Shown piece by piece: positions 1,024-10,057 of a stretch of 64,000 nucleotides of DNA (position 1 is its first letter; every line of letters begins with the position of its first letter). This stretch comes from a virus. Taxonomy: Duplodnaviria > Caudoviricetes. Location of the stretch: IMG/VR virus record IMGVR_UViG_3300032030_000047, positions 23,624-87,623 of that record. The stretch is one strand, 5' to 3'. The notes below the pieces were generated by a model, which worked only from the letters and a program-made list of their open reading frames with translations, was not told the origin of the DNA and made no database searches. The translations under genes and the position numbers were made by a program.

Positions 1024-2110
1024 ATAAAATACAGGATTCGTTCGCCACACGTCTATGGTCAAGCAGAGTATTAAGTGAAGTAGCTTTCTCATCACTCCTG
1101 TAAATTTGATAGTATAAAACCCCGTATGCGAACTATCATTGCGCTCTAGAAACGCCTGCTTTGCTGTCTCGGGGATCAATTTACGGATTCTTCATCCGGG
1201 ATTAATTTATGGGATATTCATCCCATTCTTGATTTCGGGGAATCTCCCCTGCGGCCAAGAGAAGCCTTATCTACGGCGCGAGAGGCGTGCTAGGTTCTTG
1301 ACCTAGCGGGTTGCGCTTCGGCGTAGGGGTGGACCAAGCCTTTCAACTAGCCCAAACGGTAGTTTTTCAGTCATACTGGACATCCTGTAATAGAAAATGC
1401 AACTAGTATTCAGCACCATTTCTCGATGCTGGCATCTCCTAATAGGAAGCACGTACTCATTAAGCACATACCACGACTAGTTCCGACATTTATAACGCGC
1501 GCGTCTCAGTCGTCAGCAATCGCGCTAGATGAATGGTCTATTTTTTACTTGCTACTGCCATCACCATCGAAAGCGCAAGCTATATATTTATCTAACCCCT
1601 ATAGTGGGTGGTTTTCGCGTTTTATATACCGATTCGGAAAACATAGAGACCGGTTGTCCGTTTCATATGGTAGAATACATCGACCGGTACGGGCGTCCGG
1701 TCGGAACGGCTCATACTACCAAAAATACTAGGCACATTAAAAAAACTTTTAATAGCAAGTTATTCCTCATAGGTTTGCTGCGTGTGCCTATAACATGACA
1801 CCTTATATTTTATCAGAATATATGTAAATGATTATAAAATTGCTGTCGGTGTCATTTTAATTACCGAGGCCCTCGCATATACGTAATATGTGGATACCTC
1901 GTGCCTCCTGTACCTTACAGGTCGGTCTGTCTATTCTGTATACATGCTATTTTAGTATCACTCTTTTGGCATAGCTGCCTCACCACGGCTGTCGTCGCTC
2001 ACGAGACCTGCGTCCGTAGATAGTATGGGCGTACCATTGCTATCTATTACCACAGCGCCGGACCTCAACCGGCCAGTCATATCCTGTCAATTCAGGCTTT
2101 ATGTGGTTGA
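1024..2110 (-). ncRNA. Candidate large structured ncRNA region (ROOL/GOLLD-like context; family unassigned)
   Basis: About 1.08 kb between two tRNAs with no credible ORF or RBS and many stem-loops (CAGCATC/GGTGCTG, CTAGGT/ACCTAG, GCCGG/CCGGC, TAGATAG/CTATCTA, CCTGTA/TACAGG). Strand inferred from the co-oriented tRNAs. Confidence 0.45.
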
Positions 2111-2447: not shown

Positions 2448-3053
2448 TTAAATTTTTTCCCATTCTTCATCGGAATAAGAATTAATTTCTTTTTTTGTCC
2501 TTGGCAAATTCATACTGTCACACCATTTACGAATACTGTTATCTTCTACTCCAAATTGTTTTCCAATTTGAGTAAAAGGCATAGTTCGAATTAATTGCTT
2601 TAATTCTTCTCGTGAAGGTCTTTCACAAGCTCTTCTAGCCTTTGCTGCACAACTTGGACAGCGAATCGCGGCAGAATCTATTTGACAATGGCAATCAATA
2701 CAATAATTTAATTTAGCAGTCATTTTATCATTACGTTCATTAATTAATCTTTGTGCTAATTCATTATTGAACACATGCTCCGTTGGAGCATCATAATAAC
2801 CGCTATGCACTCCTCTATGACAATTCGCGCATAATAAAAAACATTTTTTTACTTCATTTAAGTCAGTTTCAATATCATGACAAGTTCCTCTTGAAGATAT
2901 TCCATAATCCTTTTTAGTCGGGTCTTCGTGATGAAATTCTAATGCGTCTGCGAATAAATCAAAACCGCATATCTGACATTTTCCACCTAAAACCTAAATA
3001 AGATTTTGTTTTCTTCTTCTACGATAATTACTTACATCTTCTGCTCTACTCAT
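2448..3053 (-). CDS. HNH endonuclease (201 aa, 1 TAG)
   Basis: AGGAGG RBS; KCQICG...LEFHH...LLCANCHRGVH, then a C-terminal CxxC/HTH region; needs TAG readthrough at NLI*VLGG. Confidence 0.85.
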
Positions 3054-3136
3054 AATAATTCCTCCTATGAATTAAAATTATGGCCGGTAATAGGAGTACC
3101 TTCATCTCGTTGGTCATGACTCCAACGCTACCCAAA

Positions 3137-3255
3137 CTAGACGTACTCATAACCGCGCTTCTGCCAATTGAGCGACCATCCAATGGCTGGATGGGTTGGA
3201 TTCGAACCAACACTTGACGGGCTCCCAAAGCGAAGAAATATTGCTGATACGTCTA
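3137..3255 (-). tRNA. Candidate circularly permuted tRNA (TGG anticodon): 3' half 3231-3184 precedes 5' half 3182-3153
   Basis: Acceptor CCATCCA-G-CCA-T-TGGATGG pairs 7/7; joining the halves gives CGGGC-TT-TGG-GA-GCCCG; flanks TAGACGTA/TACGTCTA pair. Confidence 0.6.
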
Positions 3256-3258
3256 AAG

Positions 3259-3330
3259 CGACCTTACGCAGAATTGAACTGCGGTTTCAGGCGTGACAAG
3301 CCTACGTAATTACCACTATACGATAAGGCC
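3259..3330 (-). tRNA. trnD: tRNA-Asp(GTC) copy 1
   Basis: GGCCTTA/TAAGGTC, G73, TAGGC-TT-GTC-AC-GCCTG, CGCAG-TTCAATT-CTGCG. Confidence 0.9.
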
Positions 3331-3382
3331 AGATGGCGCTTTCGCGCCGTGCATACTAAAAGGTATGCTGTTATGATCAGAG

Positions 3383-3454
3383 CGACCTTACAGGGAATCG
3401 AACCCTGGTTTTCCGGTAGACAGCCGGATGTAATAACCTCTATACGATAAGGCC
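3383..3454 (-). tRNA. trnD: tRNA-Asp(GTC) copy 2
   Basis: GGCCTTA/TAAGGTC, G73, TCCGG-CT-GTC-TA-CCGGA, CAGGG-TTCGATT-CCCTG. Confidence 0.92.
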
Positions 3455-3625
3455 ATATAATGCCGAGCACACCCTCGGCTTGGACTATTAGGGCCGTACC
3501 AATACTGGCGCGTATGCTTTAAACTTCTATCACCCTACTGTAAGAGATTATAGTGAGTAGTCGCTCACTAGCAGTAGGTTGCTAGCCGCGCATCGGTTTA
3601 GTCACCGTTTTTGCTAAGGTGAACG

Positions 3626-9489: not shown

Positions 9490-9522
9490 ATCCTTTAATC
9501 TCCTTTTATATAAAATAATAAG

Positions 9523-9610
9523 CAGCCCCTGAAAGATTCGAACTTTCATAACCTCGGCAGAGGATATAACGGTTTTAGAGACCGGCGTCTTGCCATTAGA
9601 CGAAGGGGCT
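9523..9610 (-). tRNA. Amber suppressor tRNA (anticodon CTA) with a 21-nt variable arm
   Basis: AGCCCCT/AGGGGCT acceptor, G73, GTCT/AGAC D stem, CCGGT-CT-CTA-AA-ACCGT, GAAAG-TTCGAAT-CTTTC. Confidence 0.9.
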
Positions 9611-9993: not shown

Positions 9994-10057
9994 ATTACTA
10001 CCTCCCTATGTAGTAAAAAATATATTTAAGCAAGTTCCTTTCCTTGCTTATACATAT

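What the first reader, a model, noticed from the sequence alone, without database searches (positions are those of the whole stretch)
3137..3255. Candidate circularly permuted tRNA gene in a phage
Seen on the minus strand: the 3' half comes first (GC-TTTGGGA-GCCCG, TCAAGT, GTTGG-TTCGAAT-CCAAC, CCATCCA-G-CCA). After a 1-nt linker comes a 5' half (TGGATGG-TC-GCTC-AATTGGCAG-AAGC-G-CGG). The acceptor pairs 7/7. Joining 5'-half CGG to 3'-half GC gives a perfect 5-bp anticodon stem (junction at 29/30, TGG anticodon). Leader TAGACGTA (3255-3248) and trailer TACGTCTA (3145-3138) pair and would bring the two ends together. Established: permuted tRNAs are known from algae and a crenarchaeon, and two-piece tmRNAs from bacteria. 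I am not aware of a bacteriophage case. The U1-A72/G2-C71/G3-C70/G73 acceptor is Gln-like while the anticodon is Pro, so identity is ambiguous.
Basis: partly seen in the sequence, partly recalled or inferred. Interest (0 to 1): 0.87.

Follow-up and report, generated by a model that had tools for sequence, protein, structure and literature searches.

The report
Rotated tRNA-Pro mimic, Y-RNA-like
This 118-base phage gene is a proline tRNA written back-half-first, but it most likely works as a tRNA look-alike that partners the phage's Ro60-shaped protein, a known RNA class, rather than as a working tRNA.

Summary
On the minus strand, 3231-3184 is a tRNA 3' half ending G-CCA, 3183 is a single U, and 3182-3153 is the 5' half. 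Joined in silico, the halves give an ARAGORN tRNA-Pro(UGG). An 8-bp leader/trailer helix flanks the unit.

It is not an isolated oddity. The flanks form a conserved handle (stem, CAGCAA, A/U linkers, stem, GU) shared with at least four other small RNAs on this contig and with elements in other phages. I found 21 unique rotated Pro-type sequences in about six lineages, with compensatory changes in every helix, including the split anticodon stem.

Several results argue against a working tRNA:
- Most lineages seal the acceptor with a loop lacking CCA.
- Strain variants of this element lose the CCA or change the anticodon.
- A canonical tRNA-Pro(UGG) sits next to the rotated copy in three phages.
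- One homolog lies 0.5 kb downstream of a true Ro60 gene and matches Rfam YrlA at E = 3e-8.

This contig encodes a DUF2828-vWA protein whose predicted fold matches Ro60, inside an RNA-repair gene cluster.

Verdict: a YrlA-class tRNA mimic, published as 'circularly permuted tRNA' look-alikes, in a new variant that keeps a full anticodon arm. No RNA-level evidence was obtainable. The scan reached the same reading earlier on other DNA (e1-5750730).

The parts
3248..3255 (-). Handle terminal stem, 5' strand (UAGACGUA); starts 2 nt after tRNA-Asp
   Evidence: Pairs 8/8 with 3138-3145. Same WAGRC-type stem in 15 elements of related phages.
3241..3246 (-). CAGCAA motif of the handle
   Evidence: Invariant in handle elements of this contig and of L064, L067, L074, L088, L090, L092.
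3232..3241 (-). A/U-rich linker 1 (AUAUUUCUUC; its first A overlaps the CAGCAA motif)
   Evidence: Length and composition are conserved in the A/U-rich handle type.
3218..3231 (-). Anticodon-like hairpin GC-UUUGGGA-GC plus CCG (positions 30-43); loop has U33, UGG, G37
   Evidence: The same hairpin occurs in 21 unique homologs. In the YrlA model it aligns as an insertion in the stem at the anticodon-stem position.
3212..3217 (-). Variable region UCAAGU
3195..3211 (-). T arm GUUGG-UUCGAAU-CCAAC
   Evidence: 5/5 pairs. A strain variant A3196G keeps the pair as U.G.
3188..3194 (-). Acceptor 3' strand CCAUCCA
   Evidence: 7/7 with 3176-3182. Compensatory variant 3192 A>U with 3178 U>A in one contig.
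3183..3187 (-). Loop closing the acceptor: G73-CCA-U
   Evidence: Variants read ACCAU (X2) and ACUGA (X1), so the CCA is not fixed.
3176..3182 (-). Acceptor 5' strand UGGAUGG
3157..3175 (-). U8-C9 and D arm GCUC-AAUUGGCAG-AAGC
   Evidence: 3 of 4 D-stem pairs form (C13.A22 mismatch). G18G19 are present.
3153..3156 (-). G26 and CGG (27-29), completing the anticodon stem with 3218-3220
   Evidence: Split stem pairs in 61/63 cells across 21 homologs, with six pair combinations.
3146..3152 (-). A/U linker 2 (UUAUGAG)
   Evidence: UUAWRAR-type linker shared with L064, L067, L074 and L078.
3138..3145 (-). Handle terminal stem, 3' strand (UACGUCUA), followed by GU
   Evidence: Gene-order variants in X16 break exactly at this stem.
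3258..3330 (-). tRNA-Asp(GUC) directly upstream; probable co-transcript whose 3' processing would free the element's 5' end
   Evidence: The processing role is inferred.
1795..1855 (-). 61-nt handle element with A/U-rich payload (AUGACACC ... GGUGUCAU-GU)
1729..1790 (-). 62-nt handle element (UAGGCACA-CG-CAGCAA ... UGUGCCUA-GU)

Best explanation
The element is a Y-RNA-like tRNA mimic of the YrlA class, not a translational tRNA. It is transcribed within the phage tRNA operon, 2 nt after tRNA-Asp. The two ends pair to form a handle: an 8-bp stem, then CAGCAA and A/U linkers. The interior folds into a complete L-shaped tRNA-Pro body whose acceptor stem is closed by the loop G-CCA-U. Its anticodon arm is assembled across a three-way junction at position 29/30. 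The handle most likely docks the RNA on the phage's Ro60-fold protein (DUF2828 plus a vWA domain). That protein is encoded on the same strand in a cluster with a polynucleotide-kinase-like gene and an RNA-ligase-like gene. The tRNA-shaped module would then present a tRNA-Pro look-alike to a tRNA-binding factor, either a repair or processing enzyme or a host tRNA-targeting nuclease. Shown here: the structure, its conservation and covariation, the handle family, the Ro60-like fold of DUF2828, and the statistical co-occurrence. Inferred: transcription, binding to DUF2828, and the downstream function.
For: 1. The permuted cloverleaf is real.
2. Handle family: at least five elements on this contig share stem, CAGCA(A) and stem-GU with different but pairing stems. 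There are 15 strict elements in about 181 kb of related phage DNA, against 2 (neither followed by GU) in 588 kb of control DNA.
3. Ten hand-parsed and 21 auto-parsed homologs keep every helix through compensatory change. Split anticodon stem 61/63, acceptor 136/147, D stem 83/84.
4. Most lineages seal the acceptor without CCA: GAAA tetraloop, a 12-bp stem with GNRA loop, or 6-22-nt loops.
5. Strain variants keep the pairing (5:68 U-A to A-U; T-stem U.G), but the loop GCCAU becomes ACUGA and G35 becomes A.
6. A canonical tRNA-Pro(UGG) lies 3-390 nt from the rotated copy in L064, L065 and L067.
7. The Rfam YrlA model matches homologs over its full length: L075 49.9 bits (E = 3e-8), L067 43.4, L065 32.8. 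The window's core scores 19.7.
8. The L075 element lies 0.5 kb downstream of a true Ro60 gene on the same strand.
9. The 13 best PDB matches of the DUF2828-vWA model are all Ro60/TROVE structures.
10. Ro60-fold genes occur in 6/8 element-bearing records against 9/34 controls (p = 0.016). DUF2828 with the CAGCAA-type handle occurs in 4/5 against 2/34 (p = 0.0009).
11. The DUF2828 neighbourhood is an RNA-repair cluster of kinase, phosphatase, RlaP and RNA ligase.
Against: - The window's element scores only 19.7 bits on Rfam YrlA (gathering score 69). Its handle lacks the GNCGAA motif.
- DUF2828 lies about 15 kb away, not adjacent.
- Two element-bearing records (G002, complete; G004, 83% complete) have neither DUF2828 nor TROVE.
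- A blind prediction failed. Two DUF2828-positive control records, one 91% complete, contain no CAGCAA handle element.
- Part of the co-occurrence may reflect shared ancestry of the phages.
- This element, and the whole L064/L074 lineage, keep a 7-bp acceptor with NCCA. The 87.6-kb fragment has no canonical tRNA-Pro(UGG). Some tRNA-like use of the acceptor end is therefore not excluded.
- There is no direct evidence of transcription, processing or protein binding.
Confidence: 0.7

Rival explanations
1. It is a Y-RNA-like mimic that RNase P also cuts at the acceptor loop, as in M. smegmatis YrlA. This yields a two-piece RNA held together by the acceptor stem and the handle, with a free G73-CCA end that might be aminoacylated. 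This refines the best explanation rather than replacing it.
For: The element has a 7-bp acceptor, a canonical T arm and an encoded NCCA followed by 1 nt. The L064/L074 lineage keeps C1-G72, A73 and CCA, the bacterial ProRS acceptor identity set (my own knowledge), in seven variants from different samples. M. smegmatis YrlA is cleaved by RNase P and receives CCA in vivo (PMC4201824).
Against: Close variants of this element read ACUGA in place of GCCAU. Four of six lineages lack CCA. A 5-nt loop in which CCA is joined directly to the -1 nucleotide is probably a poor RNase P substrate (inference). This element has U1-A72 and G73, not the Pro acceptor identity.
Confidence: 0.15
2. It is a genuine circularly permuted tRNA-Pro(UGG) gene. 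The handle is removed and the halves are ligated at 29/30 (or used as two pieces), supplying the phage with its CCA/CCU/CCG-decoding tRNA.
For: The joined halves form a complete cloverleaf with tertiary nucleotides and CCA. The contig fragment has tRNA-Pro(CGG) but no ordinary tRNA-Pro(UGG). The phage carries kinase-like and RNA-ligase-like genes that could seal RNA ends. Another reader noted other interrupted tRNAs on this contig (e1-5924726, not tested here).
Against: There is no bulge-helix-bulge motif: the 8-bp helix is separated from the junction by 16 and 7 unpaired nt. No splicing endonuclease was found. The handle is conserved in sequence and also carries non-tRNA payloads. Homologs are sealed without CCA. 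Canonical tRNA-Pro(UGG) coexists with the rotated copy in L064, L065 and L067. Strain variants change G35 and the CCA. A helix left at 29/30 would probably clash with ribosomal contacts to the anticodon stem (my own knowledge, inference).
Confidence: 0.07
3. It is a non-functional relic: two tandem tRNA-Pro copies truncated by deletions or by recombination linked to the adjacent HNH homing endonuclease.
For: An HNH endonuclease gene lies 85 nt downstream at 2448-3053. Tandem tRNAs with short spacers are common in phages. YrlA RNAs are proposed to have arisen from dimeric tRNA transcripts (10.1101/312249).
Against: The breakpoints match exactly, with no overlap or gap. The flanks pair 8/8. The architecture is conserved with compensatory changes in about six lineages from rumen, human gut and freshwater samples. 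Strain variants preserve the pairing. The element moves as an intact cassette between gene orders.
Confidence: 0.03
4. It is a stand-alone tRNA decoy or sponge for a tRNA-Pro-specific factor, such as a host anticodon nuclease, a modification enzyme or ProRS. In this reading it acts independently of DUF2828, and the handle serves only as a stabilising clamp.
For: The anticodon-type loop is conserved: UUUGGGA matches the loop of E. coli tRNA-Pro(UGG) as I recall it. Other copies mimic Pro-GGG, Thr-GGU and Thr-UGU loops. Elements occur in two records without any Ro60-family gene. DUF2828 phages exist without the handle.
Against: The CAGCAA motif is invariant, which argues for sequence-specific recognition of the handle. 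Co-occurrence with Ro60-fold genes is significant. The L075 homolog is adjacent to Ro60.
Confidence: 0.1

Closest known systems
YrlA (Y RNA-like A, Rfam RF02553), partner of bacterial and phage Ro60/Rsr (Chen et al. 2014, PMC4201824; Wang et al. 2018, 10.1101/312249)
   Same: The order is the same: terminal stem, hairpin, T arm, loop-closed acceptor stem, D arm, terminal stem. The tRNA tertiary nucleotides are conserved. The literature describes these RNAs as resembling circularly permuted tRNAs. One member (M. smegmatis) has a 7-bp acceptor cut by RNase P. They occur in phages and are associated with a Ro60-fold protein and RNA-repair genes. Homologs of this element match the model at E down to 3e-8.
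   Different: The window's element is far below the gathering score (19.7 against 69 bits). Its handle has WAGRC-stem/CAGCAA in place of GNCGAA. The likely partner is DUF2828-vWA, not an annotated TROVE protein, and is not adjacent. It keeps a full 7-nt anticodon-type loop on a split 5-bp stem, whereas published YrlA 'lacks the anticodon loop'. It also encodes NCCA.
Thermus phage phiLo Ro60 with Yrl1/Yrl2 (PMC12135203; PDB 9KOP, 9L5Y)
   Same: A phage-encoded Ro60-fold protein with several phage-encoded partner RNAs built on a terminal stem. These two structures are the best structural matches to the DUF2828 model.
   Different: The phiLo Yrl RNAs were identified by a CGAA motif and a stem-bulge-stem shape, and are not described as whole tRNA mimics. 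Binding was shown experimentally there and not here.
Circularly permuted tRNA genes of Cyanidioschyzon merolae, some green algae and Thermofilum pendens (my own knowledge: Soma et al. 2007; Chan et al. 2011)
   Same: The 3' half lies upstream of the 5' half. The joined halves give a canonical cloverleaf. Leader and trailer pair. 29/30 is a known archaeal intron or split position.
   Different: Those genes have a bulge-helix-bulge junction cut by the splicing endonuclease, a circular intermediate, and no canonical duplicate. Here there is no BHB and no endonuclease. The handle has its own conserved sequence motif, homologs are sealed, and canonical tRNA-Pro genes coexist.
Two-piece (circularly permuted) tmRNA of alpha-proteobacteria and cyanobacteria (my own knowledge)
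   Same: A bacterial-world precedent for a permuted tRNA-like gene whose pieces stay base-paired after processing.
   Different: tmRNA has a tag reading frame and pseudoknots and is alanylated. ARAGORN finds no tmRNA here, and the element has no coding module.

Membership tests
Circularly permuted tRNA genes (algal/archaeal type) | 3' half upstream of 5' half in one unit; the joined halves fold as a canonical tRNA | tested here: met
   ARAGORN calls tRNA-Pro(tgg) on the joined sequence.
Circularly permuted tRNA genes (algal/archaeal type) | Bulge-helix-bulge motif formed by leader and trailer at the junction | tested here: not met
   The 8-bp helix is separated from the 29/30 junction by 16 nt and 7 nt of unpaired linker. 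No 3-nt bulges flank a 4-bp helix.
Circularly permuted tRNA genes (algal/archaeal type) | tRNA-splicing endonuclease available | tested here: not met
   No PF01974 match in the 87.6-kb fragment. The fragment is about 48% complete and the host was not examined.
Circularly permuted tRNA genes (algal/archaeal type) | Mature contiguous tRNA, or a circular intermediate, detected | not testable with these tools
   Only assembled contigs of RNA libraries were available. None joins 3153 to 3231, which is not evidence of absence.
Circularly permuted tRNA genes (algal/archaeal type) | The permuted gene is the needed isoacceptor, with no canonical copy | tested here: inconclusive
   There is no canonical Pro(UGG) on this fragment. 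Canonical Pro(UGG) lies beside the rotated copy in L064, L065 and L067.
YrlA / Y RNA-like (RF02553) | Order: stem, T arm, loop-closed acceptor-like stem, D arm, stem | tested here: met
   The model aligns to 3157-3212 and over its full length to homologs.
YrlA / Y RNA-like (RF02553) | Score at or above the Rfam gathering threshold (69 bits) | tested here: not met
   Window 19.7 bits. Homologs score 24.8-49.9 bits, with E down to 3e-8.
YrlA / Y RNA-like (RF02553) | GNCGAAN0-1G motif in the 5' strand of the Ro60-binding module | tested here: not met
   The window has GACGUAUC followed by CAGCAA. L075a and L075b carry CACGAAUG and GCUGAAUG.
YrlA / Y RNA-like (RF02553) | Encoded within about 4 kb of a Ro60 orthologue on the same strand | tested here: inconclusive
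   Window: a Ro60-fold DUF2828 gene lies on the same strand but about 15 kb away. L075: 0.5 kb from a true Ro60 on the same strand. Other handle elements lie 4-8 kb upstream of DUF2828.
YrlA / Y RNA-like (RF02553) | Conserved tRNA elbow and tertiary nucleotides (U8, A14, G18G19, T-loop UUCGAAU, 15:48 pair) | tested here: met
   Read directly from the sequence: U8, A14, A15 with U48, GG in the D loop, and a canonical T loop.
YrlA / Y RNA-like (RF02553) | Bound by the Ro60-family protein | not testable with these tools
   Needs EMSA or RIP. Only co-occurrence statistics are available.
Ro60/TROVE proteins (for the DUF2828 partner) | HEAT-repeat ring plus C-terminal vWA domain | tested here: met
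   Pfam gives DUF2828 plus DUF7788 with a weak VWA_2 match. The AF2 model has pLDDT 79.5. Its top 13 PDB matches are all Ro60/TROVE over about 520 columns. There is no Pfam TROVE hit.

The most novel reading that the evidence does not exclude
This is a 'whole-tRNA' Y RNA. A Ro60-like (DUF2828) particle displays a complete tRNA-Pro, including a genuine anticodon loop and, in some lineages, the full ProRS identity set with CCA. After RNase P cleavage the RNA becomes a two-piece molecule that can be charged. Alternatively it serves as an isoacceptor-specific bait or sensor for host nucleases that attack tRNA anticodon loops, coupling detection to the neighbouring kinase, phosphatase and ligase repair genes.
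Probability: 0.15. Interest if true: 0.8.

Novelty: new variant of a known kind. Interest (0 to 1): 0.45.

Why it matters
Y RNAs and Ro60 are conserved from bacteria to humans, yet it is still unknown what the tRNA-like module of bacterial YrlA RNAs binds. A phage subclass that keeps a recognisable anticodon arm (Pro-like or Thr-like) narrows the candidates to factors that read the anticodon, and that can be tested directly. The work also ties the large, unannotated DUF2828-DUF7788 protein family (more than 6,500 relatives in one search) to the Ro60 fold and to an RNA-repair gene cluster. It also gives a recognisable RNA signature, WAGRC stem plus CAGCAA, that annotation tools miss. On the practical side, back-to-front tRNA-like units in phage tRNA arrays should not be reported as permuted tRNA genes until the Y-RNA reading has been checked.

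Tried and rejected
- My first collection pattern had the spacers miscounted and found nothing.
- A neighbouring 307-aa protein gave no related viral loci.
- BLAST of the region against GenBank phages found only a tRNA-Glu-like stretch in Vibrio phages.
- RNA evidence: three metatranscriptome runs and one DNA run could be laid only as assembled contigs. No contig joins 3153 to 3231. An RNA-library contig is colinear across 2925-3394, and a 96-nt contig covers 3150-3245. None of this shows transcription, RNA ends, processing or their absence.
- The joints 3135->3569 and 3700->3149 are gene-order differences in relatives about 93% identical, not splicing.
- My generic handle detector (7-bp stem plus CAGCAA) was too noisy: shuffled sequence gave about half as many hits. 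I replaced it with a strict signature.
- Blind prediction: DUF2828-positive control phages should carry CAGCAA handle elements. It failed for G032 and G037. The five seed matches in G037 are chance hits in coding sequence.
- A literature search for DUF2828 found nothing relevant.
- A PDB sequence search with the DUF2828 protein found nothing. Only the fold comparison did.
- No TROVE or RtcB match on the contig.
- Considered and rejected: an attP-type tRNA fragment (a 5' half follows it), a tmRNA (no ARAGORN call), and a group I intron (no room for one).

Full report
**1. Observation**

Read on the minus strand, window 3256-3137 contains these parts in order:
- an 8-nt stem strand (UAGACGUA)
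- U, CAGCA, and a 10-nt A/U-rich linker
- GC, a 7-nt loop UUUGGGA, and GCCCG
- a 6-nt variable region
- a canonical T arm
- CCAUCCA, then G-CCA, then one U, then UGGAUGG
- UC, a D arm, G, and CGG
- UUAUGAG and the complementary stem strand UACGUCUA

ARAGORN and Rfam see nothing at the native locus. When the 5' half (3182-3153) is placed before the 3' half (3231-3184), ARAGORN calls a 78-nt tRNA-Pro(UGG). The 29/30 breakpoint is unambiguous. The tRNA tertiary nucleotides (U8, A14, A15 with U48, G18G19, T loop UUCGAAU) are present.

As a background, I looked at 61 phage loci in which a tRNA 3' end is followed within a few nucleotides by a tRNA 5' end. Almost all are plain tandem tRNAs whose two acceptor strands do not pair (0-5 of 7). 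The one exception, L006, turned out to be a related kind of RNA.

**2. Context**

The window lies in an 87.6-kb viral contig that is about 48% complete. The contig has 24 conventional tRNA genes, all on the minus strand. They include tRNA-Pro(CGG) but no ordinary tRNA-Pro(UGG). TAG is probably read as sense: the HNH gene just downstream has an in-frame TAG, and a tRNA(CUA) is present. The element starts 2 nt after tRNA-Asp (3258-3330).

**3. The flanks are a conserved handle**

At least four other minus-strand elements in the same tRNA region share one frame. Each has an 8-9-bp terminal stem, 1-2 nt, CAGCA(A), a payload, the complementary stem, and then GU or GG. Their stem sequences differ but always pair. 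Two of them (window 1795-1855 and 1729-1790) carry only a short A/U-rich payload. One, upstream of the window, carries only a T arm.

A strict signature (WAGRC stem, CAGCAA, closing stem) finds 15 elements in about 181 kb of this and related phage DNA, 14 of them followed by GU or GG. It finds 2, a single homologous pair not followed by GU, in 588 kb of tRNA-rich control phage loci. So the 'leader' and 'trailer' are a sequence-conserved module that also serves non-tRNA payloads. That is not expected of an intron-like junction.

**4. Homologs elsewhere**

Pattern scans of viral and metagenome contigs recovered the same construct in about six lineages from rumen, human-gut and freshwater samples. 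Each has the handle, a Pro-type hairpin, a T arm, a closed acceptor hairpin, a D arm, and 2-3 nt that complete the anticodon stem.

- In ten hand-parsed elements, the split part of the anticodon stem pairs in 28 of 28 cells using six different pair combinations. The T stem pairs in 50 of 50 cells. The acceptor pairs 7/7 in eight of the ten.
- In 21 unique auto-parsed sequences, the counts are 61/63 for the split anticodon stem, 136/147 for the acceptor, and 83/84 for the D stem.
- The junction shifts to 28/29 in L065 and L075b, yet the 5-bp stem is preserved.
- Other handle-borne copies carry different anticodon-type loops at the same place, each with U33 and a purine at position 37: UUGGGGU, UUGGUAA and AUUGUAA.

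The structure is therefore under selection, and a deletion relic is excluded.

**5. Evidence against a working tRNA**

- The acceptor end is lineage-specific. It is a GAAA tetraloop in L067, a 12-bp stem with a GNRA loop in eleven L082-type variants, and a 6-22-nt loop without CCA in L065, L075, L074b and L102. NCCA is kept only in the L064/L074 lineage and in the window.
- Strain variants of the window's own element appear in a sheep-gut DNA run. They show a compensatory flip of acceptor pair 5:68 and a U-A to U.G change in the T stem. The same variant reads ACUGA where the window has GCCAU. Four contigs carry G35 to A (UGG to UAG).
- A canonical tRNA-Pro(UGG) gene lies 3-390 nt from the rotated copy in L064, L065 and L067.
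- No bulge-helix-bulge can be drawn, and the contig fragment has no splicing endonuclease.

**6. Link to Y RNAs**

The Rfam YrlA model matches the homologs over its full length, though all fall below the 69-bit gathering score:
- L075: 49.9 bits (E = 3e-8)
- L067: 43.4 bits
- L065: 32.8 bits
- L082: 27.3 bits
- L064: 24.8 bits
- The window's core: 19.7 bits

In the model alignment, the anticodon-type hairpin is a 15-nt insertion in the stem that takes the place of the anticodon stem.

The L075 element, and a second YrlA-like RNA, lie directly downstream of a genuine Ro60 gene on the same strand. That gene scores 50.5 bits on vWA_Ro60 and 23.7 bits on TROVE. This is the published genomic criterion for YrlA (PMC4201824). 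[quoted passage not shown] It also states that YrlA 'lacks the anticodon loop', and that M. smegmatis YrlA, with a 7-bp stem, is cut by RNase P and receives CCA. Phage Ro60 with partner RNAs is also published (PMC12135203, PMC7824862).

**7. The probable partner**

The contig encodes a 507-aa protein with DUF2828 and vWA-like DUF7788 domains. An AlphaFold model built on a 20-sequence alignment has pLDDT 79.5. Its 13 best PDB matches are all Ro60/TROVE structures over about 520 columns, with E from 3.5e-7 to 7.5e-4.

Related phages conserve the gene's neighbourhood: a P-loop kinase, a metallophosphatase, DUF2828, RlaP and an RNA ligase. Handle elements sit 4-8 kb upstream on the same strand, often 4-5 nt after a tRNA-Pro gene. 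My contig has the kinase and a weak ligase match.

Ro60-fold genes occur in 6 of 8 element-bearing records against 9 of 34 control records (one-sided Fisher p = 0.016). DUF2828 with the CAGCAA-type handle occurs in 4 of 5 against 2 of 34 (p = 0.0009).

The caveats are real. Two element-bearing records have no such gene. Part of the association may be shared ancestry. A blind prediction also failed: two DUF2828-positive control phages have no CAGCAA handle element.

**8. What remains open**

No RNA-level evidence could be obtained, because only assembled contigs of RNA libraries were available. The window's element and the L064/L074 lineage keep a 7-bp acceptor and NCCA. In L064/L074 these come with C1-G72 and A73. 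RNase P cleavage into a two-piece, CCA-ended form, as in M. smegmatis, is therefore plausible for these members.

L078 is a normal-order tRNA-Pro(UGG) with a 43-nt insert at exactly 29/30 that carries the same linker, CAGCAA and linker parts. This shows that the arm at 29/30 is integral to the family and that both topologies exist.

**9. Verdict**

The best reading is a YrlA-class, Y-RNA-like tRNA-Pro mimic on a CAGCAA handle, probably partnered with the phage's Ro60-fold DUF2828 protein in an RNA-repair context. That makes it a new variant of a known kind. The new features are the retained anticodon arm, the different handle motif and the unannotated partner family.

Noticed in passing
L078:2590-2709 (+): A normal-order tRNA-Pro(UGG) with a free CCA end has a 43-nt insert at exactly position 29/30. 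The insert carries UUAUAUA, UUACAGCAA and an A/U-rich end, the same parts as the handle but without a terminal stem. It may be the un-permuted counterpart of this family. No Ro60-family gene was found in its 65%-complete record.
   Followed up: partly
L006 minus strand, about + coordinates 2150-2300, and the 250 nt upstream on that strand: In a complete 345-kb phage that encodes a true Ro60 (TROVE, 90.6 bits), a rotated tRNA-like module sits on a 19-22-bp helix built from AAGUACUU/CUGCAG palindromes, with no CAGCA. Just upstream is a roughly 230-nt unit with a tRNA-like 5' acceptor strand and a T arm ending in CCA, flanked by the same helix motif.
   Followed up: partly
window 2448-3053 (-): A 201-aa HNH-type endonuclease ORF, 85 nt downstream of the element, has one in-frame TAG. 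Together with tRNA(CUA) at 9522-9610, this suggests TAG is read as sense in this phage.
   Followed up: partly
window 1328-1472 (-) and 9995-10053 (-): The Rfam families cow-rumen-3 (107 bits) and cow-rumen-4 (56 bits) lie inside or near the tRNA array. The 1-2.4 kb stretch is largely non-coding and dense in structured RNAs.
   Followed up: no
window 3136-3568, compared with runs X16 and X18: In relatives about 93% identical, the HNH region joins directly to 3569, and the element instead lies upstream of the tRNA-Met gene. The element therefore behaves as a movable cassette bounded by its terminal stem. One run also shows one tRNA-Asp copy where the window has two.
   Followed up: partly
L088, L090, L092 and own contig C1:16.6-16.9 kb: A handle element directly follows a canonical tRNA-Pro gene (4-5 nt spacing in the three relatives). 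This synteny is conserved and unexplained.
   Followed up: partly
L067:39-667 (-) and L064:6133-6245 (+): A ROOL RNA (351 bits) and a RAGATH-33 RNA (138 bits) sit in the same tRNA arrays as the rotated tRNA mimics in two other phages.
   Followed up: no
I saw the sequence but did not analyse it.
   Followed up: no
G032 and G037 (records of L037 and L048): These phages encode DUF2828 proteins but have no WAGRC/CAGCAA handle element. Their partner RNAs, if any, must look different.
   Followed up: partly
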